This document shows, one piece after another, positions 4,168-22,152 of a stretch of 64,000 bases of DNA. The stretch comes from Candidatus Limnocylindrales bacterium (GTDB taxonomy: Bacteria; Chloroflexota; Limnocylindria; Limnocylindrales; CSP1-4): NCBI GenBank assembly GCA_050008515.1, contig JBEKMM010000004.1, positions 83,343 through 147,342 on the forward strand, in the 5' to 3' direction. How positions within the stretch are numbered: position 1 is the stretch's first letter; the number at the start of each line of letters is the position of its first letter. Below the pieces are notes generated by a model. That model was not told the origin of the DNA, made no database searches, and worked only from the letters and a program-made list of their open reading frames with translations. Position numbers and translations under genes: made by a program.

Positions 4168-5091
4168 TCAGCCCTTGATGGCTCCGCTGAGACCGCCGCC
4201 CCGCAGGAACATACGCTGGAAGATGAGGAACAGCGCGATCGGGAACAATGTCGCGATCGCCAGGGACGCGAGGAAGAGGTCGAGCTGAATGCCCCTCTCG
4301 AGGGTCGGGAGTCGCACCGAGAGCGGCTGGTTGGCCGGAGTCGGCAACACCAGCATCGGCCACAGGTAGTCCTTCCACGTCGCAATCACGGCGAAGACAG
4401 ACACGACGCCCAGGATCGGGCGCGACAGCGGCAGGACGATCGACCAGAAGAGGCGGAACGGGCCGGCGCCATCGACCCGTGCCGCCTCGAAGATCTCGCG
4501 GGGCAGGTTGTCGAAGAACCGCTTGATGATCACGACGTTGAACGCGCTGGCCCCCGCCGGCAGCCACACCGCCCAAAACGTGTCGAGCAGCTTGATGTTC
4601 ACCAGCGGCATGTCCAGGACGGTCAGGTAGAGAGGAACCAGCAAGACGATCGAGGGGACGAACAGAGTGGCCAGCACCAATCCATACAGGAGACGCGTGC
4701 CCCTGGGTCGCAATACCGAAAGAGCATAACCGGCAGTCGTCGCGACAGTGATCTGGCACATCCAAGATCCCACGGCGATCCAGACCGTGTTCATGAAGTA
4801 GCGTTCGATGTGGACCTTCGTGAAAGCCTGGGTCAGAAGGCTCAGGTCGAAGCCGTTGGGCCACAGCGCCATCGGCTGTCGCAACGTGTCCTGGGTCGGG
4901 GTGATGGCCGCCTTGGCCAGCCACAGGATCGGACCCAATCCAACGATGATCAGCAGGATCAGAGTCAGCACGTGGACCGTCTGGACAGTCCAGCGGATCC
5001 TCCGGCGATGCCAATCCGCCAGCGAAACGATGCCGCGCTGCTCGGCCGGAGGAGCCTTTCGACCCACCCGGGAAGGAAGGGACAGCTTCAT
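4168..5091 (-). CDS. carbohydrate ABC transporter permease (MalG-like)
   Basis: Starts MKLSLPS at 5089-5091. Six TM segments and the EAA-type loop (FDNLPREIFEAARVDGAG). 4-nt overlap with the upstream permease. Confidence 0.9.
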   Translation of the reverse strand: MKLSLPSRVGRKAPPAEQRGIVSLADWHRRRIRWTVQTVHVLTLILLIIVGLGPILWLAKAAITPTQDTLRQPMALWPNGFDLSLLTQAFTKVHIERYFMNTVWIAVGSWMCQITVATTAGYALSVLRPRGTRLLYGLVLATLFVPSIVLLVPLYLTVLDMPLVNIKLLDTFWAVWLPAGASAFNVVIIKRFFDNLPREIFEAARVDGAGPFRLFWSIVLPLSRPILGVVSVFAVIATWKDYLWPMLVLPTPANQPLSVRLPTLERGIQLDLFLASLAIATLFPIALFLIFQRMFLRGGGLSGAIKG

Positions 5092-6035
5092 GATGTGGTG
5101 CTCCACGACCGGGTGAGCCAGAAGTAGACCGCGGTGAATACGCCGAGGAATGCCGCCAGCATCAGGCTCAGCGCGGCAGCCTCTCCGAAGTGGCCACCGA
5201 GACTGCTCCCGAAGGCGTACTGGTATATCAGAAGCAGAACGGTCGTCGTCGCGTTGCCCGGGCCTCCCTCCGTCAGCAGGAAGGGCTCCGTGAAGACCTG
5301 GGCCGTGGCGATCAGCTGAAGGATCAGCGTGATGAACAGAATCCCTCGCAGGTGCGGCAGGGTCACGTACCGGATCTTCTGCAAGATCGAAGCCCCATCG
5401 ACCTCGGCCGCGTCGTAGAGCTCCGGTGGGACGCTGAGAAGCGCCGCGAGGTAGATGATCACGGTTCCGCCGAAGGCAGCCCAGGTCGCCTCCACCACTA
5501 TCGATGGCATCGCCATTGCGGCGTCCCCGAGCCATTGGACCGGCCCGAGCCCGACGACGCCAAGGATGGAGTTGAAGGCTCCGTTGGATCCGCCCTTGTA
5601 GAAGACCTTCCACAGGAGCACGGCAACGACGGGCGGAACGACCACTGGCAGATAAGCCAGGGCGCTGTAGAGGCTCCTGAAGCGGCGCGTCTCGCTCATG
5701 ATCACCGCCAGCACGAGCGGCATCGGGTAGCCGAAGATCAGCGCCAGAAGAGCGAAGTAGGCCGTGTTGGCGACGGCCGTGCCAAAGAGCGGATCCCCCA
5801 GGACGTTGGCGAAGTTGTCCAGGCCCACGAAGGTGGGCGTCGAGACGAGGTTGGTCTCCTGAACGCTCATGACGAACGACCGGAGGATCGGGAACCAGGA
5901 GAAGATCCCGAAAATCAATAGCAACGGCAGCAGAAAGGCCAGCGTGCTGAGTCCGTCTCTGCTGACCCAGGTCAGCGGACCACGGCGCTTGCGCACACCG
6001 CTCGCGGCAACTGCCGGTTCAGCCCGAGAGCTCAT
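5088..6035 (-). CDS. carbohydrate ABC transporter permease (MalF-like)
   Basis: MSSRAEP start. Motifs TLPHLRGILFITLILQLIATAQVFTEPF and EAA loop DAAEVDGAS. Confidence 0.9.
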   Translation of the reverse strand: MSSRAEPAVAASGVRKRRGPLTWVSRDGLSTLAFLLPLLLIFGIFSWFPILRSFVMSVQETNLVSTPTFVGLDNFANVLGDPLFGTAVANTAYFALLALIFGYPMPLVLAVIMSETRRFRSLYSALAYLPVVVPPVVAVLLWKVFYKGGSNGAFNSILGVVGLGPVQWLGDAAMAMPSIVVEATWAAFGGTVIIYLAALLSVPPELYDAAEVDGASILQKIRYVTLPHLRGILFITLILQLIATAQVFTEPFLLTEGGPGNATTTVLLLIYQYAFGSSLGGHFGEAAALSLMLAAFLGVFTAVYFWLTRSWSTTS

Positions 6036-6153
6036 TCCTGGGCATCTGCCTTTCTGCGCGTCACCCACCACGCTCTTGAGCGTGAGGGCTCTACTCGGAT
6101 CGGAGGTCTCGATGGGGGCCTGGAATGGCGTAGGCCCCCATCGAGGGTGTCGA

Positions 6154-7590
6154 TCAGCCCTTGTCGATGATCGACTGGATCTGCTTGTTCGCCGCGTCGA
6201 GCAGCGCGTTGATGTCAGCGTTCTTGTCGGTCAGGACCTTCTGAACGACGGGGTCGAGAGCCGCATAGAGATCCTGAGTGTTGTAGCGCGGCTCGGTGAC
6301 CAGAGGCTCGCTGAAGATCTTGCTGGTGAAGGGGGTCATCTGGGCCGTGGGGACGTTGATGTAGTCCTTGATCCAGATCTGTGACTGATCGTAGGTAGCC
6401 TTGTCGAAGATCGGGAGAGCCGGGACACCGACGGGCTGATTGTTGGCCTTGAGGGCCTGTGCGTCAGCCACGGCGCCGTCCTGGGTCCGAAGCTTGTTCA
6501 TGTAGTAGAAGTCGATGAAGTCGACCGCCGCATCGCGCTGGGCGTCGGTGGTGAGGACGTTGACCGCGACGAGGTTGCCGCCGCCGAGGACGCCCGCATT
6601 CGGGTCGCTGGCGAGCGGGATGACGGTGATGCCGTAATCGTCGGCCTTGAGGGCGTTGTTCTGCACCATCGCGGTGTAGAGGTCGGAACCGCCAGTGAAC
6701 ATACCGATCTGGCCGGCGGCGAAGTCCTGGTTGATGGTGCCCCAGTTGTAGTCGAACGTGGCGCCCATCGAATTGTCGTCCCAGCGCAGGCCGTGGAGGT
6801 ATGCGAGGGCGGCCTTGGTGTAGGAGTTGTTGAGGGTCGCGGTGACCTTGCCGGTCTTGGGGTCGACGGACTCCATGCGCCCACCCAGAGAGTAGGTCAT
6901 GGTTGTCAGCTGCCAGCCACCGGTGTTCTGAGTGGCCATCTGGGCGAAGCCGGCGACGCCGGTCTTCGAGGCGATGATCTTGGCGTCGGCCTTGACTTCG
7001 TCCCAAGTCGTGGGCGGCTTGTCAGGATCGAGGCCAGCGGCCTTGAACAGAGTGCGGTTGTAGGTCAGCGACATGCCGTACGCCGTGATCGGCACGGCCC
7101 AGATCTTGCCATCGGTGTCCTCGCCGTTGACGAGCACGTTCGGGTTGAACTTGTCGGCATAACCCAGCGCGCGGACGCGGGAGTCGATGTTGACGATCTG
7201 GTGCTGAGCGATCAGGCCCTTGCCGTCGGTGAACGGGATATTGAATACGGTCGGCAGTGTGCCGCCGGCGAGCTGGGCCGTGAAGGTCGGGGCCGTCCAG
7301 TTGTACTCGTTAGGCACGACTGTGACCCAGGGATACTTGGCTTCGAACTGGCTGATCTGAAGGTTCAGGGCATCGGAAGCTTCCTGCGTGGCGCCCGGCC
7401 GCAGCACGCCGACCGAGATGGTGACGGGCTTATGGGTGTCGACGCTCGGGGCCGCGGTCGCGTTGGGCGCGGTGGTGGGAGCGGTTGTCGGGGTGGTGGT
7501 GCTGGTCGAGGAACTGCAAGCGCTCACGGTGAACATGGCCAACGCGACCATCACCAGCGCCTTGGATATGCGATTGGGCTTGGCTCTCAT
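6154..7590 (-). CDS. sugar ABC transporter substrate-binding lipoprotein
   Basis: Start MRAKPNRISKALVMVALAMFTVSAC with lipobox VSAC, a Thr/Pro-rich linker, and a family-1 extracellular solute-binding fold. Confidence 0.9.
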   Translation of the reverse strand: MRAKPNRISKALVMVALAMFTVSACSSSTSTTTPTTAPTTAPNATAAPSVDTHKPVTISVGVLRPGATQEASDALNLQISQFEAKYPWVTVVPNEYNWTAPTFTAQLAGGTLPTVFNIPFTDGKGLIAQHQIVNIDSRVRALGYADKFNPNVLVNGEDTDGKIWAVPITAYGMSLTYNRTLFKAAGLDPDKPPTTWDEVKADAKIIASKTGVAGFAQMATQNTGGWQLTTMTYSLGGRMESVDPKTGKVTATLNNSYTKAALAYLHGLRWDDNSMGATFDYNWGTINQDFAAGQIGMFTGGSDLYTAMVQNNALKADDYGITVIPLASDPNAGVLGGGNLVAVNVLTTDAQRDAAVDFIDFYYMNKLRTQDGAVADAQALKANNQPVGVPALPIFDKATYDQSQIWIKDYINVPTAQMTPFTSKIFSEPLVTEPRYNTQDLYAALDPVVQKVLTDKNADINALLDAANKQIQSIIDKG

Positions 7591-7683
7591 TTGCTCACTC
7601 ACTCTAGGTTTGTCGCTCAATTGCCCTTGTCGTCTGAGCTGAAAGATCCCCTTGGAGAGCGTGTCTGGGCCGTCACACCATCC

Positions 7684-9439
7684 TCATTCTCCCTCCACTG
7701 TCGGGAACCGGAGGAATCGGTCCTCGGTTAGGGGCCGGTCGGGGCGCAACCAAGCGGTGGCGTCCGACGGCAGTAGTCCACCCGTCAGGTCGGCGCTGGC
7801 AAGCAGCACGGATGCGCCGGCGGGCAATTCGATGGGGGCGCGAGAGAGGTTGGCGATGCAGACGAAACTCTCGCCCCGCCCAAAGGCGAGCACTTCGTCG
7901 GCCGAGAGTAGCCATCGCAGATCGCCGCCGGCCAGGTCCGGGTCGCTCCGCCGGATGCGCAGCATCCTTCGATACAGGCTGAGCATCGAGGCCGAATCTC
8001 TCTGCTCCGCCTCGACGGTCAATTCCGCCCAGTGGCTCGGTTGGGGCAACCAGGGCTCGGCTGTGGCGCCGGCCGGGCTGAAGCCGAAGGGCTGATTGGA
8101 TCCGGCCCACGGCAGCGGGACGCGGCATCCGTCCCGGCCTGGATCTGCGCCACCGGAACGGTGATACATCGGGTCCTGCCGCTGTTCGGCGGGCAGGTCC
8201 TGGACCTCGTCGAGGCCCAGCTCTTCGCCCTGGTAGATGTACAAGGAGCCCGGCAGGGCGGCACACAGCAACGCGGCCGCTCTCGCTCGCTTCCGACCGA
8301 GTTCCAGATCCGTCGGAATGCCAGCCCGCTTCGTGGCGAAGGCAAACGCGGTGTCCTCCTGGCCGTATCTGGTCACGGGCCGGGTGACGTCGTGATTGGA
8401 CAGCACCCACGTGGGCGGCGCGCCGACCGGCGCGTGCGCGGCCAGCGTGCTGTCGATCGACGCCTTCAAACTGGCCGCATCCCAGGCCCGAGCCAGGAAG
8501 TCGAAGTTGAAGGCCGTGTGAAGCTCATCGGCGCGCAGGTACTTGGTGAAGCGGTCGATGTCCGGAAGCCAGATCTCCCCGACCAGAATCCGGGTGTCGG
8601 GATAGGAATCCGCCACGGACCGCCAGCGGCGGTATATCTCGTGCAGCTCGTCCCGATCCGTGTTGGGATGCTCACCGGGCCCGGGCTCCGCCGGCACCTC
8701 AGGCAGCGCCGGGTCCTTCACCAACAGGGCCGCCGAATCGACACGAACACCAGCCACTCCACGGTCGAACCAGAAGCGGAGCACAGCCTCGTGCTCGGCC
8801 CGAACGTCGGGGTGGCTCCAGTTCAGGTCGGGCTGCTGAGCCGAGAAGAGATGGAGGTACCACTCGCCTGGAGTGCCGTCCGGGTTCTGCGTCCGTGTCC
8901 AAGTCGGGCCCGAGAAGTTGGACACCCACCCATTGGGCATCTCGTTGCCATCTTCGCCCCGGCCAGGGTGGAACCAGAACCTCGCCCGTTCCGGCGAGCC
9001 CGGGCCCGAGGCAAGGGCCGCCTGGAACCACGGGTGCTGATCCGAAACGTGATTCGGGACGATGTCGACGATGGTCCGGATGCCCAGGCTTCGGGCTTCC
9101 GATATGAGCCGCTCCGCCTCGTCGAGCGACCCGAAGGACGGGTCGATGGCTCGGTAGTCCGCGACGTCGTATCCGCCGTCGGCAAGCGGCGATACGTACC
9201 AGGGAGTGAACCAGATGGCATCGACTCCCAGATCCACCAGGTACTGCAGCCGCGTCCGCACGCCAGTGAGGTCGCCGATGCCGTCGCCATTGCCGTCCGC
9301 GAAGCTCCGGACGTAGACCTGGTAGATGACGGCGCGCCGCCACCACTGGTCGTCCGCGTCCGATGCCCTGCGAGGCCACCCCTCCGGGTCGGCCGTGGTC
9401 CGCGGTGAAGCTGCGCCTGCGAGGAGCTCGTCGGTCACT
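7684..9439 (-). CDS. alpha-glucosidase / oligo-1,6-glucosidase family (GH13)
   Basis: GH13 conserved regions: WWRRAVIYQVYVRSF, DGIGDL, GIRTIVDIVPNHVS, GVRVDSAALL, EIWLPD, FNFDFL. Start uncertain: GTG near 9439 proposed, and the ORF upstream of it looks non-coding. Confidence 0.85.
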
Positions 9440-9737
9440 GGATCTGTGCTCCGGTCGGGCGGCCGGTGTCTCACCTGGAGCGCATCCGGAGGCCGCCTGG
9501 GGCAAAGTACACTATCGGACAGATCTGCGCAATATCTTGACAGTAGATCTTTTGTTCTATGTGCGCGCCCTGCAACTAGTTGACGATACCCGTCCTGCTG
9601 AGCCCGCTCGACTCGCGAACGCGCGCGCGGGACAGCTGGGACGTGGCGGCCGACGACAACGCAAAGGGCGAGCCGCATCGGCTGCCGCCCTCGTCCGGTG
9701 TCCGGAAAGGGCGCGACTCAGGCCGAGCCGGCGAGCC
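9440..9737 (-). promoter_or_regulatory. promoter/operator region of the alpha-glucoside operon
   Basis: Only AT-richer stretch in the locus (9480-9600), between the lacI-family gene and the glucosidase. Contains a TTGACA-like hexamer and repeated AGATCT palindromes. No precise operator called. Confidence 0.3.
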
Positions 9738-12257: not shown

Positions 12258-13532
12258 ATGCGATCCAGGCTCGGTTTCTCGGGCGCATTGGTAGTCGTCG
12301 CGCTCCTGGCGACGGGCTGCGGCAGCACCAGCCCCACGGCGAGCGGGGCGCCGCCGACCGTTGCCCCCACTCCGGTCAGCTCGCCCTCCGCGCCGAGTCC
12401 CACTGCGACGCCGGCGACGACCGCCACTCCCGTGCCCACTCCCACGCCCAGTCCCGCCAGTTGGGTCTCGGCCGGGTCGCTCAACGCCTCTCGCGGTTCC
12501 ACTCGCCTGGTCGCGCTGACCGACGGGCGGGCCCTCGTCGTCGGGGACGACAACTTCTGCGACCCAGGGCCGGCCTGGGACACGAGCATGGCGGCGGAGG
12601 TGTGGGAGGCCGGCAAGTGGGCCACCACCGGAAGCCTCAACTCGGCCCGCAATGACTTCACCGCCCAGCCGCTGGCGAACGGCCAGGCGTTCGTGGTGGG
12701 CGGCACCAACGTCGACTGGATCTCGTTCTCGAGTCCGAAGATCTGGGACCCGAAGACCGGCACCTGGAACACGTCGGGGCTGATGGCGACCGCGCGCTCC
12801 TATCCCGCGTCCGCCCTCCTCAAGGACGGGATGGTGATCGTCATCGCCGGCGAATACCGAAACCCCCCGGCGGACGCGTTCCTCGCGACCGCCGAGGTCT
12901 TCAATCCGGCTACCGGCAAGTTCGCCAAGACGGGCGCGCTCAAGGTGGCCCGCAGCGGGGCGATGGCCGTCACGCTCGCGGACGGGCGCGTCCTCGCGGT
13001 CGGCGGCTACACCGCCAAGGGCGCCGTGGCAGACTCCGAGATCTGGGACCCGACGACCGGCAAATGGGCCGCCGTCGGCGCCACGCCGATCTGGGGCGGA
13101 TCCGTTCTCGTGCCTCTGGCGGACGGCGGGGCGCTTCTCGCCGGCGGTCAGGACAAGGCTCTCAAGGGGATCGCCACGGCCTACCGGCTGGATCCCAAGA
13201 CCAACAAGTGGGCGGCCACCGGCAAGATGCTTACGGCGGCGTACGACCGCGCGGCGGCGGTGCTGACCAACGGACAGGTGCTGGTCGCCGGCGGCCTGCC
13301 CGATCATCTCAAGCCGGCAACAGCCGCCGCGGAGCTCTTCGATCCCGCGACCGGAACCTGGACCGCCACGCTGCCGATGCCGTCGGCCCGCGAGCAGTCG
13401 AGGGCCGTGCTCCTTCAGGACGGCTCGATCCTGGTCGCCGGCGGCGACGCCGGCTACTTCCCCCCGGCCCTTACCCCGTGGTGTCCCAAGGAGATCAAGG
13501 ACACGCTGCGCTACATCCCCGCGGTGCCTTGA
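12258..13532 (+). CDS. Kelch-repeat lipoprotein (beta-propeller)
   Basis: Lipobox LLATGC, Pro/Thr-rich linker, then repeated Kelch-like blades (ALxDGRxLVxGG, WDPxTGxW). Confidence 0.75.
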   Translation: MRSRLGFSGALVVVALLATGCGSTSPTASGAPPTVAPTPVSSPSAPSPTATPATTATPVPTPTPSPASWVSAGSLNASRGSTRLVALTDGRALVVGDDNFCDPGPAWDTSMAAEVWEAGKWATTGSLNSARNDFTAQPLANGQAFVVGGTNVDWISFSSPKIWDPKTGTWNTSGLMATARSYPASALLKDGMVIVIAGEYRNPPADAFLATAEVFNPATGKFAKTGALKVARSGAMAVTLADGRVLAVGGYTAKGAVADSEIWDPTTGKWAAVGATPIWGGSVLVPLADGGALLAGGQDKALKGIATAYRLDPKTNKWAATGKMLTAAYDRAAAVLTNGQVLVAGGLPDHLKPATAAAELFDPATGTWTATLPMPSAREQSRAVLLQDGSILVAGGDAGYFPPALTPWCPKEIKDTLRYIPAVP

Positions 13533-13572
13533 TCGGTCTCGACCACGCCACTTGCCGGTGGCCGATCAAGGC
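13526..13572. terminator. bidirectional terminator-like inverted repeat between convergent genes
   Basis: gccttgatcgg-N25-ccgatcaaggc with an inner hairpin gccac-ttgccg-gtggc. Sits between the Kelch gene stop and the PD40 gene stop. Confidence 0.45.
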
Positions 13573-14217
13573 TGCCAGTGCACCTCGGACGCCTTCGAGG
13601 TGCCGGGGATGGCCGTGACGGCTCCGCCGGTCGAACCGACAACGAAGATCCCGCCCGTGCTCTTGATGAAGGCGATCTTGCTGCCGTCAGGCGACCAGGT
13701 GGGCTTGGATCCCGTGCCGGCATAGATGATCATCCCGACTCCGGTGGTGGCGCTCTGCATGGTCAGATGGCTGCTGAAGATGGCAAGCGTGGCGCTGCTG
13801 GGGGACCATGCGAAATCGGTTGCCGCGCCGAAGTCCCGAATGGCGCCGCCGCTGAGGTTGCGGACGTAGAGATGGCCCGACTTCAGGTAGGCGATCTTCG
13901 AGCCGTTGGGGGAGATTTCAGCCCGCGTGGCCGTGATGCCCAAAGATGTGTAGACGCCGTCCGTGAGGCTCACCTTCAGCCACACACCGGAGGGGTTCAC
14001 AGCAAGGAGCGCCGATCCATCGGGCAGCCAGCGTCGGGGTCGCGGTCGGGGCTAGCGTCGGGGTCGCGGTCGGGGCTAGGGTCGGGGTCGCGGCGGAGGT
14101 GCCGCTCGGCAGCGCGGAAGATGTTTCGAGCCAGGGCGTTGTCCTCGCGGATCCGCAGGCCCCGACAACCAGGGAGAGAGCGGCGACAACCGCGGCCGCA
14201 CGGACGTTGTGACCCAT
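13566..14217 (-). pseudogene. PD40/WD40-like beta-propeller lipoprotein interrupted by a frameshift in a Pro-Thr repeat
   Basis: Track ORF 13918..14217 encodes signal peptide plus lipobox (LVVGAC) and a PTLAPTATPTLAPTATPTLA linker. It then runs out of frame into ORF 13566..14000, which encodes PD40 repeats (YLKSGHLYVRNLSGG, KPTWSPDGSKIAF). The 83-nt overlap lies inside a 12/24-bp tandem repeat. Confidence 0.5.
14020..14095. repeat. tandem 12/24-bp coding repeat (gtcggggtcgcg / gtcggggctagc units)
   Basis: About 5.5 alternating 12-mers encoding (PTATPTLA)n on the minus strand. Likely site of the frameshift above. Confidence 0.7.
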
Positions 14218-14370: not shown

Positions 14371-14445
14371 GTGGAGCCGACACTCGGATTCGAACCGAGG
14401 ACCTGTTGTTTACGAAACAACTGCTCTACCGCTGAGCTATGTCGG
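14371..14445 (-). tRNA. tRNA-Thr (anticodon CGU)
   Basis: Reverse complement GCCGACATAGCTCAGCGGTAGAGCAGTTGTTTCGTAAACAACAGGTCCTCGGTTCGAATCCGAGTGTCGGCTCCA folds as a canonical cloverleaf: 7-bp acceptor, D arm GCTC/GAGC, anticodon stem GTTGT/ACAAC with loop TTCGTAA, T arm CTCGG/CCGAG with TTCGAAT, encoded CCA. Confidence 0.9.
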
Positions 14446-14573
14446 CGCGAGCGGGATGGTATCACGACCGTTCGACGGGATCGAACCTGGCCGCGCCCGA
14501 GAGAGTCCACAGAGCAGGCAATCACGTTTGATTGGGGGAAGCCTTCCACTGCCCCGGTGGGTAGGATGTACGC

Positions 14574-16667
14574 ATGAAGACAGTCGCCCGGCTTCGCTCG
14601 TTCATCTGGCCCGCGCTCCTTGCCGGCGTGGTGCTGTTGCTCGCCGCCCCGGCGGCCCTTGCCCAGGGCCCGAAGCTCACTGACCACGTCATGGACCAGA
14701 CCGGCGTGCTCGGGTCCGACCAGTCGAGGGTGGAAGACGCGGTCACGTCGCTGTCCGGGAACGCCAACGTCGACCTGTGGGTCCTTTTCGTATCCACGAC
14801 CGGGAGCTCCACGGCCCCGGAATACGCGAAGGAAACCTTCGACTCGAACGGCCTGGGCGGGAATGACATGCTTCTCGTCGTCGCGGTCGACGATCACCGC
14901 TATGGCTGGGCGCAGCATGGGGCCGTCAGCCTCTCGGACGATCAGCTGACCGCACTTGCGAGCGACAGCCTCGACCCGAGGTTCAAGGCGGGCGATTACG
15001 CCGGTGGCGTGGTCGACTTCACCACCGCCCTCGCAGGGGCGGTCAACGCAGGGGTGAAGCCAACAGCCGCGCCGGCAGCTACAGGATCGGGGTCGGGATC
15101 GACCTCCAATGGGTCGTCGACCACCGGAGACCTCGGCACCTTGCTCGTATTCTTCGGCATCCTCGGCGCCATCTTCGTCGTCATCGTCTTCGCTTTCGTC
15201 TTCCGCTCCTGGAGGCTCTCGAAACTGACGGCCGAGGAGCGCGATAAGCGGACCGGCGATCTCGCCCGCCAGGCCAACAAGCTCCTGGTCGACACCGACG
15301 ACGCCATCACTTCCGCGAAGCAGGAGTTGGGCTTCGCCCAGGCCGAGTTCTCGGACGCCGACTGCGCCCCATTCGCGGCGGCGCTCGACAAGGCCCAGGA
15401 CGAGCTCAAACAGGCGTTCACGCTGCGCCAACAGCTCGACGACGCCACGCCCGAGGATCCCCCCATCCGGGAGAAGATGTACCAGGGCATCATCGCCCAC
15501 TGCCAGACTGCCGGCGCCGTCATCGACGATCAGGAGAAGCGGATCCAGGCCCTGCGCGACCTGGAGAAGACCGCTCCCCAGGCTCTCGACGGCCTTGCCA
15601 AAGCCATCGGCGATTTGCAGGCCCGGCTGCCTGCAATCAAGGACGCCATGAAGACCCTGTCCGGATACGCGCCTGCCGGCTGGGCGGCGGTCAAGGGCAA
15701 CGCCGAGGAAGCCGACAAGCGAGGCGCCTTCGCCGAGGATCAGATCAAGAAGGGCAAGGCCGCGCTGGCTCAAACACCGCCGAACAACGTCGACGCGGCC
15801 AGCGCCACGCGGGCCGCCCAGGAAGCAGTCGCCCAGTCCAACCAGCTTCTCGATGCGATCGAGAACCAGGCCAAGGCGCTCGAGGACGCGAAGTCGAAAC
15901 TTGAAGGCGAGCTCACCGCCGCGCAGGCCGACGTCGAGGCGGCCAGGGCCTCCGCGAACGCCGGGCCGACGGATCCGACGCTCGCCGGTCAGCTGGCCCA
16001 GGCGGCGACACAGCTGGCCCAAGCGCAAGCTCAGGCCACGGCGGCGGCACCGGATCCAATCGCGGCCCTGAAGGCCGCCCAGGCTGCCCACGCGACCGCC
16101 GACACGGTCCTCGCGGGCGAGCGCCAGGCCGCCGAGCTGAAGGCTCGCAACCAGGCGGCATTCGCCTCCGCGCGGGCGCTGGCAGTTTCCAGCATCGCGC
16201 GCGCGGACGGCTTCCTCTCGGCGCGGCGCAGCGCGATCGGACAGGAAGCGCGAACTCGGCTCGTGGAGGCCCAGCGCCATCTGGCACAGGCCGATGCGCT
16301 GGCCCCGACAGACCTTGCCGGCGCCACGAACGAAGCCCGCACGGCCGACAGCATGGCCGACGACGCCTACAACTCGGCCTCTTCGAACTTCGGCGGAGGA
16401 GGTTACGGGGGCGGCTACGGAGGCGGGTCCGGTGGCGGCTCGAACGTGGCCGGTGCGATTCTGGGCGGGATCATCGGCGGGATGCTGTCCGGCGGCGGAG
16501 GGCGCCGTGGCGGCTTCGGCGGCACGCCGTGGGGCTCCGGTGGCGGTTGGACCGGCGGCGGGAGCTCCGGCGGCTTCGGCGGCTTCGGCGGCACCCACAG
16601 CGGTGGCGGCAGTTTCGGTGGTGGCGGCGGAGGCGGCGGTACGCACAGTGGTGGCGGCGGCTGGTAG
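14574..16667 (+). CDS. TPM-domain (TLP18.3/Psb32/MOLO-1 family) membrane protein with long cytoplasmic coiled-coil and Gly-rich tail
   Basis: Signal peptide; TPM-like domain (LTDHVMDQTGVL...DLWVLFV...DMLLVVAVDDHRYG); Gly/Ser/Thr linker; one TM (LLVFFGILGAIFVVIVFAFVF); about 350 aa of Ala/Gln/Glu-rich coiled-coil; GGxGG C-terminal tail. Confidence 0.75.
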   Translation: MKTVARLRSFIWPALLAGVVLLLAAPAALAQGPKLTDHVMDQTGVLGSDQSRVEDAVTSLSGNANVDLWVLFVSTTGSSTAPEYAKETFDSNGLGGNDMLLVVAVDDHRYGWAQHGAVSLSDDQLTALASDSLDPRFKAGDYAGGVVDFTTALAGAVNAGVKPTAAPAATGSGSGSTSNGSSTTGDLGTLLVFFGILGAIFVVIVFAFVFRSWRLSKLTAEERDKRTGDLARQANKLLVDTDDAITSAKQELGFAQAEFSDADCAPFAAALDKAQDELKQAFTLRQQLDDATPEDPPIREKMYQGIIAHCQTAGAVIDDQEKRIQALRDLEKTAPQALDGLAKAIGDLQARLPAIKDAMKTLSGYAPAGWAAVKGNAEEADKRGAFAEDQIKKGKAALAQTPPNNVDAASATRAAQEAVAQSNQLLDAIENQAKALEDAKSKLEGELTAAQADVEAARASANAGPTDPTLAGQLAQAATQLAQAQAQATAAAPDPIAALKAAQAAHATADTVLAGERQAAELKARNQAAFASARALAVSSIARADGFLSARRSAIGQEARTRLVEAQRHLAQADALAPTDLAGATNEARTADSMADDAYNSASSNFGGGGYGGGYGGGSGGGSNVAGAILGGIIGGMLSGGGGRRGGFGGTPWGSGGGWTGGGSSGGFGGFGGTHSGGGSFGGGGGGGGTHSGGGGW

Positions 16668-16742
16668 CCAGACGCGATTCGCCTCCTCGGCACTTAGACT
16701 CACGTTCAACAATTCACGCGATTTGGAAGGGAGATCGAATCG

Positions 16743-17456
16743 ATGCCTCAGACGACGATCCTCGGGCGTGTCGGCCAGCTGCTCCGGGCAGACATCAACT
16801 CGCTCATCGACGGCGCCGAAGACCCGGAGAAGATGCTCGACCAGCTCGTTCGGGACTTCACCAACAACATGAGCCAGGCCGAAGACGCCGTTGCTCAGAC
16901 CATCGGCAACCTGCGCATGGTCGAGGACGATGCCAAAGAAGCGCGCGACGCCGCCGCCGACTGGGGCAACAAGGCGACCGTCGCCTCCAAGAAGGCCGAC
17001 GAGCTGCGCGCCGCCGGCAACACCTCCGACGCCGACAAGTTCGACAGCCTGGCCAAGCTCGCGCTCGGCCGCCAGATCAGCTTCGAGGCTCAGATCAAGA
17101 CTTTCGACACCCAAATCGAGCAGCAGACCGCGCTCGTAGCCCAGCTCAAGGACGGCCTCAACAAGATGACCGTTCGGCGCGACGAGCTGGTCCAGAAGCG
17201 CGACGAGCTGGTCGCTCGAGCCAAGATGGCGAAGGCGCAGACGCAGGTTCAGACGACGCTCAAGAACGTCTCGGTCATGGACCCGACGAGCGAGCTCAGC
17301 CAGTACGAGGAGAAGGTCCGGCGCCAGGAGGCGATGGCGCGCGGCATGGCCGAGGTCAACGCCAACTCCGTCGACGCGCAGTTCGCGTCGCTCCAGGGCG
17401 ACGAGGACGCAGCCGAGGTCGACGCTCGCCTGGCTGCCCTCAAAGCGGCCAAGTAG
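16743..17456 (+). CDS. pspA: PspA/IM30 (Vipp1) family protein
   Basis: N-terminal MPQTTILGRVGQLLRADINSLIDGAEDPEKMLDQLVRDF and a coiled-coil body typical of PspA/IM30. GGAAGGGAG RBS. Lies 76 nt downstream of the TPM gene. Confidence 0.9.
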   Translation: MPQTTILGRVGQLLRADINSLIDGAEDPEKMLDQLVRDFTNNMSQAEDAVAQTIGNLRMVEDDAKEARDAAADWGNKATVASKKADELRAAGNTSDADKFDSLAKLALGRQISFEAQIKTFDTQIEQQTALVAQLKDGLNKMTVRRDELVQKRDELVARAKMAKAQTQVQTTLKNVSVMDPTSELSQYEEKVRRQEAMARGMAEVNANSVDAQFASLQGDEDAAEVDARLAALKAAK

Positions 17457-17460
17457 CTCG

Positions 17461-17480
17461 GGGGCGCCCGAAGCGCCTCC
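17461..17480 (+). terminator. possible terminator hairpin after pspA
   Basis: ggcgcc-cgaa-ggcgcc-like stem-loop immediately after the stop codon. No U-tract. Confidence 0.25.
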
Positions 17481-17634
17481 GATCTCGCGACCCAACGGTG
17501 GGGCGGCGCGGCCGGCTGCCCGCTTTCGTGGCTAGCAGCTGAGACCGCCGCCGCTCCCTCCGCCTCCCAGGCCCGCCGGCACGGAGTCGAGTCCGTGGCG
17601 GACGATGTTGCGTATCTTCTTGAGCGCTCGAGGG

Positions 17635-17919
17635 TCAGCGGGTCGCGGCCATCGAGCGGAGAGCGGCTGCCTCGCCAGTCAGAAGCCCCGAACGCCACTC
17701 CAGGTATTGGGCGTGACGAGTCAGCTCTTCAGGAGAGGCGTCGGCCGCAGTCTTGGTGGGCTCGGCGCCGCGGCAGTCCTGTGGAAATTCGCCGCTGTCG
17801 TGGATTGGAATGAATGGGGGCGCGTTCACGCCAACCGGATTGACGGCGGGTGCCTCTCCGCCCATGGCCTGGGCGATCGCCTGGTCGCGGTGCTCTTGCT
17901 TCAACTCTGCAATGTCCAT
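17635..17919 (-). CDS. hypothetical small protein
   Basis: 94-aa ORF with reasonable composition (MDIAELKQEHRDQAIAQAM...). No homology recognised. Confidence 0.35.
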   Translation of the reverse strand: MDIAELKQEHRDQAIAQAMGGEAPAVNPVGVNAPPFIPIHDSGEFPQDCRGAEPTKTAADASPEELTRHAQYLEWRSGLLTGEAAALRSMAATR

Positions 17920-18244: not shown

Positions 18245-18853
18245 CTAGCGATCCCCCTCGATCCAGCCCTGCCGCTGGGCCACGCGCACGAGCGACGTCC
18301 GGCTCGTCACGTCGTAGCGATCGAACATCCTCCTGAGCTGGCTCTCGACGGTCTTGACGCGGAGGGACAGGCGTTCGGCGATCTCGGAGTTGGCGTGGCC
18401 CTCGGCCACGAGCGCCAGGATCTGGGCCTCGCGCGGCGTCGGCAGGCGTAGAGCCGTGCGTGCGGCTCGGCGGACAGCGTCCGGGAAAGCCGTGCCCCCA
18501 GCGGCGACCGTTCGCACGGCTGTGACGATCTGTCCGATGCTCGCCATCTTCGAGAGATAGCCCTTCGCCCCGTGCTCGACCGCGGCGACGTAGTAGCTCG
18601 GATAGGAGTACGCGCTCAGCATGATGAACGCCGGGCCCGGCGTGTGGCGGGCCAGGATCTCGAGGCCGTCCACCGTCCCGGCCAGGCGGATATCGCACAG
18701 GATGACGTCGGGGGATTGGGCCTCGATCAGGCGGTCGGCTGCGATGCTGTCCTGCGCTGTCCCAACAACGGTCACGTCGAGCTCGCCGCCCAGAAGTGCC
18801 GTGAGCCCCTCGGCGATCGCAGGATGATCCTCGATGATCGCGAGCCGGATCAC
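18245..18853 (-). CDS. LuxR/NarL-family response regulator (REC + HTH)
   Basis: REC domain (IEDHPAIAEGL...ILCDIRLAG) and a C-terminal LuxR-type HTH (REAQILALVAEGHANSEIAERLSLRVKTVESQL). Start overlaps the HK stop by 4 nt. Confidence 0.9.
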   Translation of the reverse strand: MIRLAIIEDHPAIAEGLTALLGGELDVTVVGTAQDSIAADRLIEAQSPDVILCDIRLAGTVDGLEILARHTPGPAFIMLSAYSYPSYYVAAVEHGAKGYLSKMASIGQIVTAVRTVAAGGTAFPDAVRRAARTALRLPTPREAQILALVAEGHANSEIAERLSLRVKTVESQLRRMFDRYDVTSRTSLVRVAQRQGWIEGDR

Positions 18854-21800
18854 GTTCTTGCCCCCGCCCCCGCCTCCGCCCCCGGCCGGCCAGCTGCCCG
18901 GGGCCTCCTCCTGCCGAGCGGGAGCCGAACCATGAACGCCGTTCCCAGGCCGAGGACCGACTCGACCTCGATCGTTCCGCCATGCGCGGTCACGATCTCG
19001 CGCGCCACGTAGAGCCCGAGACCCAGCCCGGCCGACGGCTTCTGCCCCAGCAGCGTATACGGCTGAAACAGCTGCGGCAGCACGCTGCTCCCGATTCCCG
19101 GGCCATGATCGCGGACTTCGACGACGCCCGTCGAGCCGGATCGACGCACGGTCACGTCGACGGTCGACGACGTCGCCGCGTGCTCGACGGCGTTGGAGAG
19201 GAGATTGACGAAGACCTGCCCCAGGCGACCGGCATCCGCCTGGACGAAGATCGGTCCGCGAGTCGACGAGACCCGAATCGGCGGTGCCTTCGGCAGCGCT
19301 CCGGCGACCTCGACGGCATTACGCACGACCGCAGTCAGATCGATCGGTGCGATAGCAAGCTCGAGTCGACCTGCCTGGATGCGGCTCACGTCGAAGAGGC
19401 GCTCTACGAGCTCTCCGATCTGCCTCGTCTGCGCGAGTGCCCGGTTCGCATAGGCACGGGCCTGCGCGGAATCCTCCGGGCCCAAGTGACGCTCGACGAG
19501 CTGGAGGTAACCATGCAGGGCGGCTACCGGGGTCTTGAGCTCGTGACCCGCCGAGGCCATCAAGCGCTCCAAGCTGAGGCGCATCGTGCGCTCGGACAGG
19601 TCCCGGATCGTAACCACTCCGCCCCAGGTCCGGTCGCCGGCGGTGAGCGGCTCGGCCACGGCCTCGAACCAGCGCCGAATCCCCCCAGGCGGCGTCACGG
19701 CGAACTCCATGCGGAACCGTTCACCTCGGGCCGCCCGTCGTTGCGGCCAGTCGGCCCGCGGAATCGGGAGGCCGGCAGCATCCTCAGGCTCGATCTCAGC
19801 CTCGACGCCACCGAAGGTCCGATCGTAGGCGTCGTTGGTCGCGACGATCCGGCCCTCGTGGTCGACCGCGACGACCGCGTCGCCGAGGCTGGCCAGGATC
19901 GATCGGAGGCGATCGTGCTCTTCCTGGAGGCTCAACCTCTGCTGCTCGAGCGCCGTGGTTTTGACACTGAGCTCTTCGGTGCGCGTCGCGAGATCCTCAT
20001 TCGCCACCCGAAGCTCCTCGACGCTCGCGGTCAGTTCCTCGTTGAGGGTTTCGAGCTCCTCGTTGGTGGCCTGGAACTCCTCGTTGACGGTTTCGACTTC
20101 CTCGCGAGTGGCCTGCGCGTCCTCGCTGGCAAGGAGCATCGATTCGTTCGCCGCCCGAAGCTCCGCGACCAGGGCGGCCAGCTCCTCGTTCGCTCGAAGG
20201 AGCCGGCCGTTCGTGGCGACCGCCTTCTCGAGCCGCTGCCGCGTCCGGAGGTCGGCACGACGCTCCTGTTCGAGCCTCGTCGCATCGGTCAGCTCAATGA
20301 CGACACCTTCGACGGCTTGCATCTCGACACGGTAGGGGCGGACCGTGGCCTCCACGAAATGGGTCGTCTCGCTGGCGGCGTCCGAGGGTTCCACCTCGAA
20401 CACGGCCGAGGTGGTCTTGCCGGTCAAAGCGGAGTCGATGGCCGCTCGGATGGCGCTGGGCGGAAGAACCTCCGCGAGGTGGATGAAATCCTGGTCGTAG
20501 GCCGTGCCGTGGATGCCGAGCATCTGGCGTGCCGCGGAGTTGATGCGCAGGATGTAGTAGCGCGGATCGACGACGACGATACCGACGGTCAGGTTGAGGA
20601 GCAGGCTATCCGCCGACGCCGACGAATCCGCCACCCGCCGGACGTCGCGGTGCGTGACACGGATGGCCTGGTCGAGCTGGGATTCCTGGCTACGACGCGG
20701 GCGGAGCACCGCCGGTCGCATCGGTGGGATCGCGTAGCTCCCGGGCAGCCGCCGATAGACGCGCAGGCGCGCCTGCTCCTCTTCGAATGGCTCCGGCAAG
20801 GCCATGACGGTCTCGGATGGACCGAGGGCCAGCCTACCGCCGGGCCGCAACGAGAACGCGAAGGTTTCGAGAGCGATCCGCTGCATCGGCGCGGTGAAGT
20901 AGATCAGGACGTTCCGGCAGAGGAGGAGATCGATCCGCGGGAACGGCGCGCGCTCGCCGAGATCGTGCTCGCCGAAGACCATGAGGGCACGCAGCCGTTT
21001 GCCGACCTCGTAGCCGCCGTCCGATTTCACGAAGTAGCGGTCTCGAGCACCTGCGGGCAGGCCCTTGAGGGCAGCTGGCTGATAGACACCCCGGCGCGCG
21101 AAGGCGATCGCCTCGCGGTCGATGTCGGTCGCGAAGATCCGGACCTCCGGCCACGGGAACTCTTCTCCGAGGGCATCGGCAACGATGATGGCCGCTGAGT
21201 AGGCCTCTTCGCCGGTCGAGCAGCCGGCCGACCAGATGCGGAGCTCCCGCTGATCGCGTCGGGCCTCCGCTATCAGCTCGGGGAGTACACGGCCGCGCAG
21301 GTACTCGAAAAGCTTCGGGTCCCGGAAGAACTCCGTGACCTTGATCAGGAGGCTGTTGACGAGCCGGGCGAACTCCTCGGGATCGGACTCCAGATATGCC
21401 GCGTACGCGGCTAGCGTTGGGCGCGATGTGGCGTTCATTCGGCCGCGCAACCGCCGCAGAATCGTGGCCGGCTTGTAGCTGCTGAAGTCGATGCCGCTTC
21501 GCTCGTGGATCCGTTCGAGGAGGTCGCGGAGCTCGTCGTGATCGGGCCCCTCCGCGGGAGCGTTACCGGCCGCCAGGAGATCGCCCAGGATCCGTCCGAT
21601 CGAGTCGAGGTCAGCCGTCGCGTCGACCAGGGAGGGGGGAATCGAGCTCGGCATCGAGGGGAACATCGCCGTCGCGGGGTTCTCGATCACGACCGCTCCG
21701 CCCGCCTTCTTGACGTGCCACGCTCCCGCGGATCCGTCGGACCCGCTGCCGGTGAGGATCACTGCGATGAGTCCGGGACCGAAGACACCGGCCGCGCTCT

Positions 21801-22152
21801 CCAGCAACACGTCGATGGAGGGTGCGACTGCGCCGGCCTTGGCCGCGCGAAGCCGCAGGGCGCCGGAGCTGATCTCGACGAGCCGGTTCGAAGGAACGAC
21901 GAAGATCACGCCGTCCTCCAGGGCCTCCCGCTCCTCGACCACTCGGACGGGCAGCGTGGCGTGGCGGGCGAGAATCTCGTGCAGATGGCTGGGGCGGCGG
22001 GGGTCGAGATGCTGCGCGATCACGATCGGCGCCGGGAAGTCGGCCGGCAGGCTCGCCACCACGCGCGAGAGCGCCTCGATGCCGCCCGCCGATGATCCGA
22101 TCACGACGAGCTGAGATTCCTGGGGGACCGCCGGTCGCGCCACGATGGCCAC
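18850..22152 (-). CDS. CheB methylesterase-CheR methyltransferase-PAS-coiled coil-PAS-histidine kinase fusion protein
   Basis: CheB (GSSAGGIEAL, IAQHLDP); CheR SAM-binding region (IWSAGCSTGEEAYS); heptad coiled-coil NEELETLNEELTASVEELRVANEDL; PAS modules; HisKA (AGHELKTPVAAL); HATPase_c (GLGLGLYVAREIV). Confidence 0.85.
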   Translation of the reverse strand: MAIVARPAVPQESQLVVIGSSAGGIEALSRVVASLPADFPAPIVIAQHLDPRRPSHLHEILARHATLPVRVVEEREALEDGVIFVVPSNRLVEISSGALRLRAAKAGAVAPSIDVLLESAAGVFGPGLIAVILTGSGSDGSAGAWHVKKAGGAVVIENPATAMFPSMPSSIPPSLVDATADLDSIGRILGDLLAAGNAPAEGPDHDELRDLLERIHERSGIDFSSYKPATILRRLRGRMNATSRPTLAAYAAYLESDPEEFARLVNSLLIKVTEFFRDPKLFEYLRGRVLPELIAEARRDQRELRIWSAGCSTGEEAYSAAIIVADALGEEFPWPEVRIFATDIDREAIAFARRGVYQPAALKGLPAGARDRYFVKSDGGYEVGKRLRALMVFGEHDLGERAPFPRIDLLLCRNVLIYFTAPMQRIALETFAFSLRPGGRLALGPSETVMALPEPFEEEQARLRVYRRLPGSYAIPPMRPAVLRPRRSQESQLDQAIRVTHRDVRRVADSSASADSLLLNLTVGIVVVDPRYYILRINSAARQMLGIHGTAYDQDFIHLAEVLPPSAIRAAIDSALTGKTTSAVFEVEPSDAASETTHFVEATVRPYRVEMQAVEGVVIELTDATRLEQERRADLRTRQRLEKAVATNGRLLRANEELAALVAELRAANESMLLASEDAQATREEVETVNEEFQATNEELETLNEELTASVEELRVANEDLATRTEELSVKTTALEQQRLSLQEEHDRLRSILASLGDAVVAVDHEGRIVATNDAYDRTFGGVEAEIEPEDAAGLPIPRADWPQRRAARGERFRMEFAVTPPGGIRRWFEAVAEPLTAGDRTWGGVVTIRDLSERTMRLSLERLMASAGHELKTPVAALHGYLQLVERHLGPEDSAQARAYANRALAQTRQIGELVERLFDVSRIQAGRLELAIAPIDLTAVVRNAVEVAGALPKAPPIRVSSTRGPIFVQADAGRLGQVFVNLLSNAVEHAATSSTVDVTVRRSGSTGVVEVRDHGPGIGSSVLPQLFQPYTLLGQKPSAGLGLGLYVAREIVTAHGGTIEVESVLGLGTAFMVRLPLGRRRPRAAGRPGAEAGAGART

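What the first reader, a model, noticed from the sequence alone, without database searches (positions are those of the whole stretch)
14574..17456. TPM-domain protein with 350-aa cytoplasmic coiled-coil immediately upstream of pspA
A periplasmic TPM domain is joined through a single TM helix to an unusually long Ala/Gln/Glu-rich coiled-coil and a GGxGG-rich tail. PspA/IM30 follows 76 nt downstream in the same orientation, and a tRNA-Thr lies just upstream. PspA partners vary across phyla. Here the pspA partner is a TPM-domain protein, where the B. subtilis operon has YdjG/H/I and M. tuberculosis has Rv2743c/Rv2742c. The pair may form an envelope-stress sensing and membrane-repair module. Whether this pairing is already catalogued is uncertain to me.
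Basis: partly seen in the sequence, partly recalled or inferred. Interest (0 to 1): 0.6.

Follow-up and report, generated by a model that had tools for sequence, protein, structure and literature searches.

The report
Conserved TPM membrane protein–PspA gene pair
A membrane protein with an outward-facing TPM domain and a long helical cytoplasmic rod is encoded directly upstream of the membrane-repair protein PspA; the pair is strongly conserved across Chloroflexota and Actinobacteria, but the TPM-PspA partnership is already described (B. subtilis YdjH), so this is a new lineage of a known system.

Summary
A 697-aa protein (14574-16667, +) has a signal-like N-terminus, a TPM domain (E=1.2e-18), one strong TM helix, a ~385-aa all-helical region and a 92-aa tail that is 59% glycine. 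PspA (16743-17456, +; E=3.5e-38) follows after 75 nt.

The adjacency is not chance. PspA sits directly downstream, on the same strand, in 67 of 68 assessable species-level genome loci and in 8 of 8 further contigs, including Streptomyces venezuelae, Actinomadura and Nonomuraea. Flanking genes are not conserved. Starting instead from PspA, 44 of 53 loci carry the partner upstream.

The interpretation needs correcting. Ravi et al. 2024 call it the conserved PspA partner, and it binds PspA and is needed to bring it to the membrane (Scholz et al. 2021). The pairing is therefore already catalogued.

The "coiled coil" is a confidently predicted helical rod (pLDDT 93.5) with a ~100-residue internal repeat. 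It has no Pfam model and no significant solved-structure match. It defines a family of more than 1,000 clusters that also reaches Mycobacterium and Corynebacterium members.

Most likely role: membrane anchor or receptor for PspA. Verdict: new member of a known kind, modest interest.

The parts
14556..14573 (+). Conserved box GGTGGGTAGGATGTACGC directly before the ATG. It contains a TANNNT-type -10-like hexamer, TAGGAT (14562-14567), 6 nt from the start codon, and there is no Shine-Dalgarno. Probable promoter of a leaderless mRNA (inferred).
   Evidence: Sequence. TAGGATG(T/A) directly before the ATG is kept in 21 of 23 upstream regions (20 of 22 distinct loci) although sequence further upstream is unrelated. 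The transcription start has not been mapped.
14574..16667 (+). Gene for the 697-aa TPM-TM-helical rod-Gly tail membrane protein (YgcG-type; same full-length family as a Corynebacterium sp. 689-aa protein and a Mycobacterium sp. homolog)
   Evidence: ORF. 696 homologs of about 700 aa. End-to-end alignment with the S. venezuelae homolog, 31% over 605 aa, E=5e-61.
14574..14663 (+). N-terminal signal-like hydrophobic segment (aa 1-30, ...AAPAALA/QG)
   Evidence: Hydropathy. Ravi et al. annotate the YdjH-type architecture as SIG+TPM+TM. Cleavage was not tested.
14688..15035 (+). TPM domain (aa 39-154), predicted to be extracytoplasmic
   Evidence: Pfam PF04536 E=1.2e-18. Foldseek top hits are all TPM structures: 2KPT, 2KW7, 5ANP, 3PTJ, 8C7I. 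Profile against PDB: 2KPT E=4.3e-11.
15135..15221 (+). Single strong transmembrane helix (about aa 188-216), followed by a positively charged juxtamembrane stretch
   Evidence: Kyte-Doolittle maximum 3.1. Helix 188-216 in the AF2 model.
15231..16388 (+). Cytoplasmic all-alpha rod domain (aa 220-605) with a ~100-residue internal repeat. The most conserved motifs lie next to the membrane (EERDxxTG, QELGFAEAEF, RQQLDDxxPED), with a second one near the C-terminus (EARTRLAEAQRH).
   Evidence: AF2 on the domain alone: pLDDT 93.5, pTM 0.67, 11 helices. HHalign self-match prob 90%, E=1.7e-6, offset about 100 aa. No Pfam family. 1,485 representative clusters at E<=1e-3. Invariant columns.
16389..16667 (+). 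Gly-rich tail (59% Gly) with a conserved short hydrophobic GAILGGIIGG segment and a terminal Trp, then the stop codon
   Evidence: Composition. Conservation. Terminal W in 59 of 69 homologs. pLDDT below 50.
16668..16742 (+). 75-nt spacer with no terminator. It holds a strong Shine-Dalgarno, GGAAGGGAG, at 16725-16733.
   Evidence: Sequence. No terminator-like site. Fold z-score -0.13. SD conserved in nearly all loci. Median gap 85 nt.
16743..17456 (+). pspA (PspA/IM30/Vipp1 family, ESCRT-III-type membrane-remodelling protein), 237 aa
   Evidence: Pfam PF04012 E=3.5e-38. Full-length matches to solved Vipp1/PspA structures, E down to 1e-19. 54-73% identical across Chloroflexota and Actinobacteria.
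17458..17482 (+). 10-bp GC-rich hairpin immediately after the pspA stop. Possible terminator without a U-tract.
   Evidence: Fold. Not picked up by the T-run-requiring scan. Inferred only.

Best explanation
This is a minimal two-gene PSP-type membrane-maintenance module. The first gene encodes a bitopic membrane protein. Its TPM domain faces outward, a single TM helix crosses the membrane, and a ~385-aa helical rod plus a Gly-rich tail lie on the cytoplasmic side. The second gene encodes PspA, the ESCRT-III-like protein that coats and repairs damaged membrane.

The most likely mechanism is that the TPM-rod protein acts as PspA's dedicated membrane anchor or receptor. It would stand in the membrane and recruit or position PspA oligomers through its cytoplasmic rod. 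The TPM domain would couple this to the state of the outer face of the membrane.

Shown here: domain identities, predicted topology, strict and ancient gene linkage, and the absence of any third conserved partner. Taken from the literature on the B. subtilis counterpart YdjH: physical interaction with PspA and the requirement for PspA membrane foci. Inferred: that the rod is the PspA-binding surface; that the partner gene has its own leaderless promoter; and that pspA can additionally be induced from a stress (ECF-type) promoter in the spacer, as is validated for Streptomyces coelicolor pspA.
For: - Domain calls: TPM E=1.2e-18, PspA E=3.5e-38.
- Linkage: PspA lies immediately downstream on the same strand in every genome locus with enough sequence except one. 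That is 69 of 70 loci, or 67 of 68 distinct. The median gap is 85 nt.
- The dyad is kept while the flanks change completely. No flank family occurs in more than 10 of 56 loci.
- The dyad is present in Actinobacteria: Nonomuraea, S. venezuelae, Actinomadura, Actinacidiphila and two metagenome contigs.
- Reverse survey from PspA: 44 of 53 loci have the partner upstream.
- There is no terminator between the genes.
- Literature: TPM-PspA association and YdjH architecture (PMC11237479). YdjH-PspA two-hybrid interaction and loss of PspA foci in a ydjH deletion (PMC8581546). S. coelicolor pspA is a sigma-E (ECF) target (PMC6767563).
- An ECF-like GAAC[CT]T-N15-18-GTCA box lies about 60 nt before pspA in 10 of 69 spacers, against a background of 0.0016 per 130 nt.
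Against: - No interaction data exist for this family, and I could not run a complex prediction.
- YdjH works together with YdjG and the band-7 protein YdjI. Neither is present here, so the mechanism may differ.
- Family members in Corynebacterium lack an adjacent PspA, so the protein can function without linkage.
- 9 of 53 PspA loci of this clade lack the partner.
- The window's own spacer lacks the GAAC -35 element.
- Gene order (TPM then PspA) is the reverse of B. subtilis.
Confidence: 0.6

Rival explanations
1. The two proteins are co-regulated but independent. The TPM protein would be an extracytoplasmic assembly factor or phosphatase for membrane complexes, as proposed for Psb32/TLP18.3, AscF and Rv2345. 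It would sit next to pspA only because both belong to an envelope-stress regulon, with no physical contact.
For: The TPM domain's closest structural relatives are assembly factors or subunits of photosystem II and of the mycobacterial CIII-CIV supercomplex. The Rv2345 TPM domain is reported to be an acid phosphatase (cited in PMC13456599). The 33-250 nt spacer and the separate promoter-like elements suggest partly independent expression.
Against: Linkage this strict and this old (67 of 68 loci, two phyla, PspA 54-73% identical), with no other conserved neighbour, usually marks physical partners. The large, highly conserved cytoplasmic rod has no role in a purely extracytoplasmic function. The B. 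subtilis TPM protein does bind PspA.
Confidence: 0.2
2. The TPM-rod protein is a cell-division or cytoskeletal scaffold (ZipA- or EzrA-like), and PspA supplies membrane remodelling at the septum.
For: Rv2345 and Cg2496 were proposed as ZipA-like from expression profiling (review PMC3989709). The full-length model gave a weak EzrA hit: 4UXV, prob 0.91, E=0.11, 466 columns. The TM + long helical repeat architecture resembles EzrA.
Against: The EzrA hit was not reproduced with the better domain-only model. There the best PDB hit is E=0.2 to a designed protein and EzrA is absent from the top 50. There is no sequence match to EzrA or ZipA families. The review itself says the division role is unvalidated. 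EzrA has no extracytoplasmic domain. Membership of Rv2345 and cg2496 themselves in this full-length family was not tested here.
Confidence: 0.1
3. The partner is a negative regulator. The rod would sequester PspA in an inactive form at the membrane and release it when the TPM domain senses damage. This is a sensor-switch model rather than a passive anchor.
For: It rests on the same linkage evidence as the main explanation. The extracytoplasmic domain, TM and cytoplasmic domain form a typical signalling topology.
Against: No data distinguish this from anchoring. In B. subtilis, deleting ydjH abolishes PspA foci rather than activating them.
Confidence: 0.1

Closest known systems
B. subtilis PspA-YdjG-YdjH-YdjI system (YdjH = TPM membrane protein)
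   Same: Signal + TPM domain + TM + low-complexity or helical C-terminus, encoded in one cluster with pspA. It is described as the conserved PspA partner. YdjH binds PspA and is required for its membrane foci. B. subtilis pspA is under an ECF sigma, sigma-W (as cited in PMC6767563, and PMC8581546), in line with the ECF-type signals seen here.
   Different: Here the unit has two genes, with no YdjG (ZnR/NTF2) and no band-7 YdjI. Gene order is reversed, with the TPM gene first. The protein carries a ~385-aa rod domain with its own large family; by my recollection YdjH is only about 250 aa. Direct sequence homology outside the TPM domain was not tested.
Actinobacterial pspA locus (Streptomyces; S. 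coelicolor sco2168 / S. lividans PspA)
   Same: The same dyad, with an orthologous ~700-aa TPM-rod protein directly upstream of pspA, in S. venezuelae, Actinacidiphila, Actinomadura and Nonomuraea. It aligns with the window protein at 31% identity over 605 aa. S. coelicolor pspA is stress-induced through ECF sigma-E.
   Different: Different phylum. The conserved leaderless-type -10 box and spacer motif of the Chloroflexota subclade are not seen in the actinobacterial loci. In the searchable library no paper combines 'TPM domain', PspA and Streptomyces, so the partner appears to be unstudied there.
M. tuberculosis Rv2345 / C. glutamicum Cg2496 (TPM membrane proteins)
   Same: The Cg2496 N-terminal domain (PDB 2KPT) is the best solved match to the window's TPM domain by fold and by profile. 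Full-length family members were found in Mycobacterium sp. (29% over aa 22-639) and Corynebacterium sp. (28% over 406 aa of the rod).
   Different: The Corynebacterium member has no PspA next to it. The proposed roles (ZipA-like, acid phosphatase) have nothing to do with PSP. That Rv2345 and Cg2496 themselves carry the rod domain is inferred, not tested.
Other PspA membrane partners: PspB/PspC (E. coli), LiaI/LiaF (B. subtilis LiaH), PspM/PspN (M. tuberculosis)
   Same: Small or bitopic membrane proteins encoded with a PspA homolog that tether or regulate it. This is established knowledge, summarised in PMC11237479.
   Different: The folds are unrelated. None of them has a TPM domain or a long helical rod, and no such domains were found at this locus.
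EzrA (spectrin-like repeat, TM-anchored division regulator)
   Same: N-terminal membrane anchorage followed by a long rod of repeated helical bundles. Repeat period of about 100 aa.
   Different: The similarity is not significant: E=0.11 with TM-score 0.23-0.29, and it is not reproduced with the better model. There is no sequence relationship.

Membership tests
TPM domain family (Pfam PF04536) | Profile match above the curated threshold | tested here: met
   67.7 bits against a cutoff of 22.1, E=1.2e-18, profile positions 1-123 of 125.
TPM domain family (Pfam PF04536) | TPM alpha/beta fold | tested here: met
   AF2 pLDDT 83-95 over aa 31-160. Foldseek hits to 2KW7, 5ANP, 7TBR and others, with target TM-score 0.7-0.8 and rmsd 2.2-2.5.
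TPM domain family (Pfam PF04536) | Phosphatase or nucleotidase activity (claimed for some members) | not testable with these tools
   Activity is disputed in the literature. No catalytic-site analysis was done.
PspA/IM30/Vipp1 family (PF04012) | Full-length profile match | tested here: met
   131.9 bits against a cutoff of 33.9, aa 6-235, profile positions 2-216 of 220. Full-length matches to solved Vipp1/PspA chains.
PspA sensu stricto (proteobacterial equivalog TIGR02977) / LiaH equivalog | Score above the NCBIfam equivalog cutoff | tested here: not met
   67 bits against 243 for TIGR02977, and 51 bits against 380 for LiaH. It is a family member but not an ortholog of E. coli PspA or B. subtilis LiaH.
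YdjH-type PspA partner (Ravi et al. 2024) | Architecture: signal + TPM + TM + low-complexity or coiled-coil C-terminus | tested here: met
   compared with the description.
YdjH-type PspA partner (Ravi et al. 2024) | Conserved genomic linkage to pspA | tested here: met
   67 of 68 distinct genome loci, 8 of 8 contigs, and 44 of 53 in the reverse direction.
YdjH-type PspA partner (Ravi et al. 2024) | Accompanied by YdjG (ZnR) and the band-7 protein YdjI | tested here: not met
   Neighbours are Kelch, PD40, LuxR response-regulator and CheB-CheR-PAS kinase genes. No conserved third gene.
YdjH-type PspA partner (Ravi et al. 2024) | Physical interaction with PspA, and requirement for PspA membrane localisation | not testable with these tools
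   Shown only for B. subtilis YdjH.
YdjH-type PspA partner (Ravi et al. 2024) | Sequence orthology to YdjH | not tested
EzrA / spectrin-repeat rods | Significant fold or sequence similarity to EzrA | tested here: not met
   E=0.11 and TM-score up to 0.29. Absent from the top 50 with the domain-only model. No Pfam EzrA hit.

The most novel reading that the evidence does not exclude
The ~385-aa rod may be a dedicated PspA-docking or templating domain that is so far unnamed: it has no Pfam model and no solved relative. TPM-rod + PspA would then be the ancestral minimal PSP system of Actinomycetota and Chloroflexota. The mycobacterial and corynebacterial family members (and Rv2345/Cg2496, if they carry the rod) would be descendants that lost linkage to pspA. 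In that case their real role would be PspA-related membrane maintenance, not ZipA-like division or phosphatase activity.
Probability: 0.3. Interest if true: 0.55.

Novelty: new member of a known kind. Interest (0 to 1): 0.3.

Why it matters
PspA partners outside Proteobacteria and Firmicutes are poorly understood. This survey shows that one partner type, a TPM domain plus a long helical rod, is almost obligatorily linked to PspA in Limnocylindria-type Chloroflexota. [quoted passage not shown] That gives a direct experimental route to testing how PspA is targeted to membranes in these phyla. It also suggests a membrane-maintenance role to test for family members in Mycobacterium and Corynebacterium. 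It does not reveal a new kind of system.

Tried and rejected
- EzrA or spectrin homology of the rod: a weak hit with the full-length model was not reproduced with the better domain-only model, so I rejected it as a family assignment.
- Pfam on the isolated rod and tail gave only sub-threshold noise. NCBIfam gave only noise for the TPM protein.
- PADLOC defence models gave only noise, E around 0.003-0.008. A defence-system reading is rejected.
- Rfam, over the whole window and with relaxed thresholds at the locus, found only the tRNA. The spacer has no unusual RNA structure, z=-0.13. A riboswitch or leader reading is rejected.
- A third conserved gene was sought by all-against-all clustering of flank ORFs. 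None was found.
There was no hit. This is a crude test and does not exclude one.
- A shared promoter motif in the actinobacterial loci, including the S. coelicolor sigma-E type, was sought. Nothing consistent was found.
- The Vrancken 2008 Streptomyces PspA paper is not held in the library.
- The sigma-70 consensus scan found no promoter in the region.
- Chance adjacency is rejected on the survey numbers.
Full report
**1. What is there.**

Between 14574 and 17456 the + strand carries two ORFs.

The first ORF (14574-16667, 697 aa) matches Pfam TPM_phosphatase at aa 39-154, with E=1.2e-18 and 67.7 bits against a cutoff of 22.1. Hydropathy shows an N-terminal signal-like segment ending ...AALA/QG and one strong transmembrane segment at about aa 188-216, followed by basic residues. 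That places the TPM domain outside the cell and everything after the TM inside. This topology is an inference from the positive-inside rule and agrees with the 'SIG+TPM+TM' annotation of the B. subtilis counterpart.

Residues 220-605 are 26% Ala and acidic overall, and are predicted to be entirely helical. Residues 606-697 are 59% Gly and end in Trp.

The second ORF (16743-17456, 237 aa) is a full-length PspA/IM30 protein, with E=3.5e-38. It aligns over its whole length with solved Vipp1/PspA structures.

The spacer is 75 nt and has no terminator-like site. tRNA-Thr(CGT) is present at 14372-14446 but on the minus strand.

**2. Is the adjacency meaningful?**

A scan of one genome per species with a family alignment returned 80 loci. 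Nearly all are Chloroflexota of the Limnocylindria/CSP1-4 type. Also present are Nitrolancea, Dehalococcoidia MAGs, and the Actinobacteria Nonomuraea, Mycobacterium sp. and Corynebacterium sp.

In every locus with roughly 700 nt or more of downstream sequence, PspA lies immediately downstream on the same strand. The single exception is the Corynebacterium locus. The count is 69 of 70, or 67 of 68 after removing two loci that duplicate contigs fetched earlier. The stop-to-start gap has a median of 85 nt and is mostly 33-250 nt. The outliers are frameshifted assemblies.

Three relatives at 77%, 53% and 43% identity keep the dyad in completely different surroundings. Clustering of all flanking ORFs found no family in more than 10 of 56 loci. 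The conserved unit is therefore exactly these two genes.

A second homolog search, starting from the Nonomuraea protein, showed the same ~700-aa family throughout Streptomyces, Actinomadura, Spirillospora and relatives. The dyad is present in S. venezuelae, Actinomadura barringtoniae, Actinacidiphila alni and two further contigs.

I also ran the survey in the other direction. I scanned metagenome contigs with a PspA alignment and looked upstream. 44 of 53 loci with enough sequence carry the TPM-rod gene. The nine exceptions all have PspA at 60% identity or less to the window's protein, and they sit next to unrelated housekeeping genes.

PspA of the dyad is 54-73% identical between the two phyla, whereas the partner is about 31-33% identical.

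**3. The cytoplasmic region.**

It is not a plain coiled coil. With a 42-sequence cross-phylum alignment, AlphaFold gives pLDDT 93.5 and pTM 0.67 for aa 220-605: eleven helices joined by short turns. A profile self-comparison finds an internal repeat offset by about 100 residues, with prob 90% and E=1.7e-6.

No Pfam or NCBIfam family covers the region. A profile search of PDB sequences hits only the TPM domain.

Foldseek with the full-length model gave a weak EzrA hit, E=0.11. The better domain-only model has no significant PDB match, and EzrA is absent from its top 50. I therefore do not assign it to the EzrA or spectrin families. It is an elongated helical-bundle rod with no solved relative.

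An exhaustive phmmer search of 1.84 billion representatives found 1,485 clusters at E<=1e-3 and 1,062 at E<=1e-10. Nearly all of the full-length ones among the 150 listed are 640-740 aa with the rod starting at residue 200-250, so the architecture is fixed.

The strongest conservation lies just after the membrane (EERDxxTG, QELGFAEAEF, RQQLDDxxPED) and in an EARTRLAEAQRH motif near the end of the rod.

**4. Regulatory anatomy (inferred, not tested).**

The TPM gene has no Shine-Dalgarno. Directly before its ATG lies TGGGTAGGATGTACGC. The TAGGAT hexamer is 6 nt from the start codon. It is conserved in 20 of 22 distinct close relatives even though their upstream sequences are otherwise unrelated. 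This is the arrangement expected for a leaderless mRNA.

By contrast, pspA has a strong, nearly universal Shine-Dalgarno: GGAAGGGAG, 9 nt before the ATG.

In 10 of 69 spacers (9 distinct loci) a GAAC[CT]T-N15-18-GTCA box lies about 60 nt before pspA. The background rate is 0.0016 per 130 nt. This resembles ECF-sigma promoters. S. coelicolor pspA is a validated sigma-E target with GGGAAC-N17-CGTCTG (PMC6767563).

The window's own spacer lacks the GAAC element. A similar box (GAACCT-N16-GTCCA, 14483-14509) lies upstream of the TPM gene, but that region may instead belong to the divergent tRNA promoter. I did not find these motifs in the actinobacterial loci.

**5. Comparison with what is known.**

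Ravi et al. 2024 (PMC11237479) list TPM_phosphatase among PspA's genomic partners. [quoted passage not shown] Their supplement gives the operon as PspA -> ZnR+TM -> SIG+TPM+TM -> Band-7+ZnR.

Scholz et al. 2021 (PMC8581546) showed that YdjH interacts with PspA and YdjI in two-hybrid assays. They also showed that deleting ydjH abolishes PspA foci and membrane recruitment.

This version differs in three ways. It is a two-gene unit without the ZnR and band-7 proteins. The gene order is reversed. It carries the large rod domain.

The family also reaches Corynebacteriales. The Cg2496 N-terminal domain (2KPT) is the best solved match for the window's TPM domain. A Corynebacterium sp. protein shares the rod at 28% identity over 406 aa, but it has no adjacent pspA. 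Rv2345 and Cg2496 have been proposed as ZipA-like division factors, which the review itself notes is unvalidated. Rv2345 has also been reported as an acid phosphatase.

**6. Mechanism.**

The best-supported reading is that the TPM-rod protein is PspA's membrane anchor or receptor (confidence about 0.6).

The rivals are:
- co-regulation without contact, with the TPM protein acting as an extracytoplasmic assembly factor (0.2);
- a division scaffold (0.1);
- a sequestering sensor-switch (0.1).

Chance adjacency is excluded.

**7. Verdict.**

It is nevertheless a new lineage of a known kind of PspA partnership, not a new system.

The residual interest lies in the unnamed rod domain, in the untested Streptomyces ortholog, and in a possible reinterpretation of the mycobacterial and corynebacterial family members (and of Rv2345/Cg2496, if they carry the rod).

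Noticed in passing
window 14556-14576; also L001, L004-L023, L033 upstream of the TPM gene: The box TGGGTAGGATGT(G/A)CG directly abuts the ATG of the TPM gene, with no Shine-Dalgarno. It is conserved in 20 of 22 distinct relatives whose upstream sequence is otherwise unrelated. It looks like a -10 element for a leaderless mRNA in a Chloroflexota lineage.
   Followed up: partly
spacers of L002/L015, L007, L008, L011, L013, L014, L018, L019, L022 (about 60 nt before the pspA ATG); window 14483-14509: An ECF-sigma-like GAAC[CT]T-N15-18-GTCA motif is about 90-fold enriched in the TPM-pspA spacer of one subclade. The window lacks it in the spacer but has GAACCT-N16-GTCCA between the divergent tRNA-Thr and the TPM gene. 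No ECF sigma gene was detected in the window by a crude tblastn.
   Followed up: partly
window 18245-18853 (-) and 18850-22152 (-): A LuxR-type response regulator overlaps by 4 nt with a 1,100-aa fusion protein that combines CheB methylesterase, CheR methyltransferase, PAS domains and a histidine kinase. The same pair sits next to the dyad in the closest relative (L001) but not in more distant ones.
   Followed up: no
window 16389-16667 (aa 606-697 of the TPM protein): The Gly-rich tail contains a conserved 15-residue hydrophobic glycine-zipper-like segment (VAGAILGGIIGGMLS) and a near-universal C-terminal Trp. It is too short for a classical TM helix and has low pLDDT. Its topology and role are unexplained.
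   Followed up: partly
window 17458-17482: A perfect 10-bp GC-rich hairpin lies immediately after the pspA stop, without a U-tract. It may be a terminator of the high-GC type.
   Followed up: no
window 17635-17919 (-): A 94-aa ORF with no Pfam hit lies downstream of pspA. A gene of the same length is called at the equivalent place in L001 (9049-9333, -).
   Followed up: no
L042 (labelled Sphingomonadales MAG) and L057 (labelled Saccharimonadales MAG): Short contigs that carry the Chloroflexota-type dyad (PspA 61-66% identical to the window's) are filed under unrelated phyla. These are probably binning errors in the public MAGs.
   Followed up: no
L016, L023, L024, L071, L082 (long-read MFD MAGs): The TPM or pspA reading frames are broken or fused (gaps of -806, -665 and 682 nt; split PspA matches). 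This is consistent with frameshift errors in the assemblies rather than biology.
   Followed up: no
window 4000-9700: A dip in GC content to 0.63 with strong AT skew corresponds to a minus-strand sugar ABC transporter (two permeases and a solute-binding protein) followed by an alpha-amylase. This is ordinary.
   Followed up: yes
window 12258-13532 (+) and 13566-14000 (-): A secreted Kelch-repeat beta-propeller protein with a Pro/Thr/Ala-rich linker, and a PD40/WD40-like beta-propeller fragment, lie upstream of the tRNA. The Kelch gene is also present near the dyad in L001.
   Followed up: no
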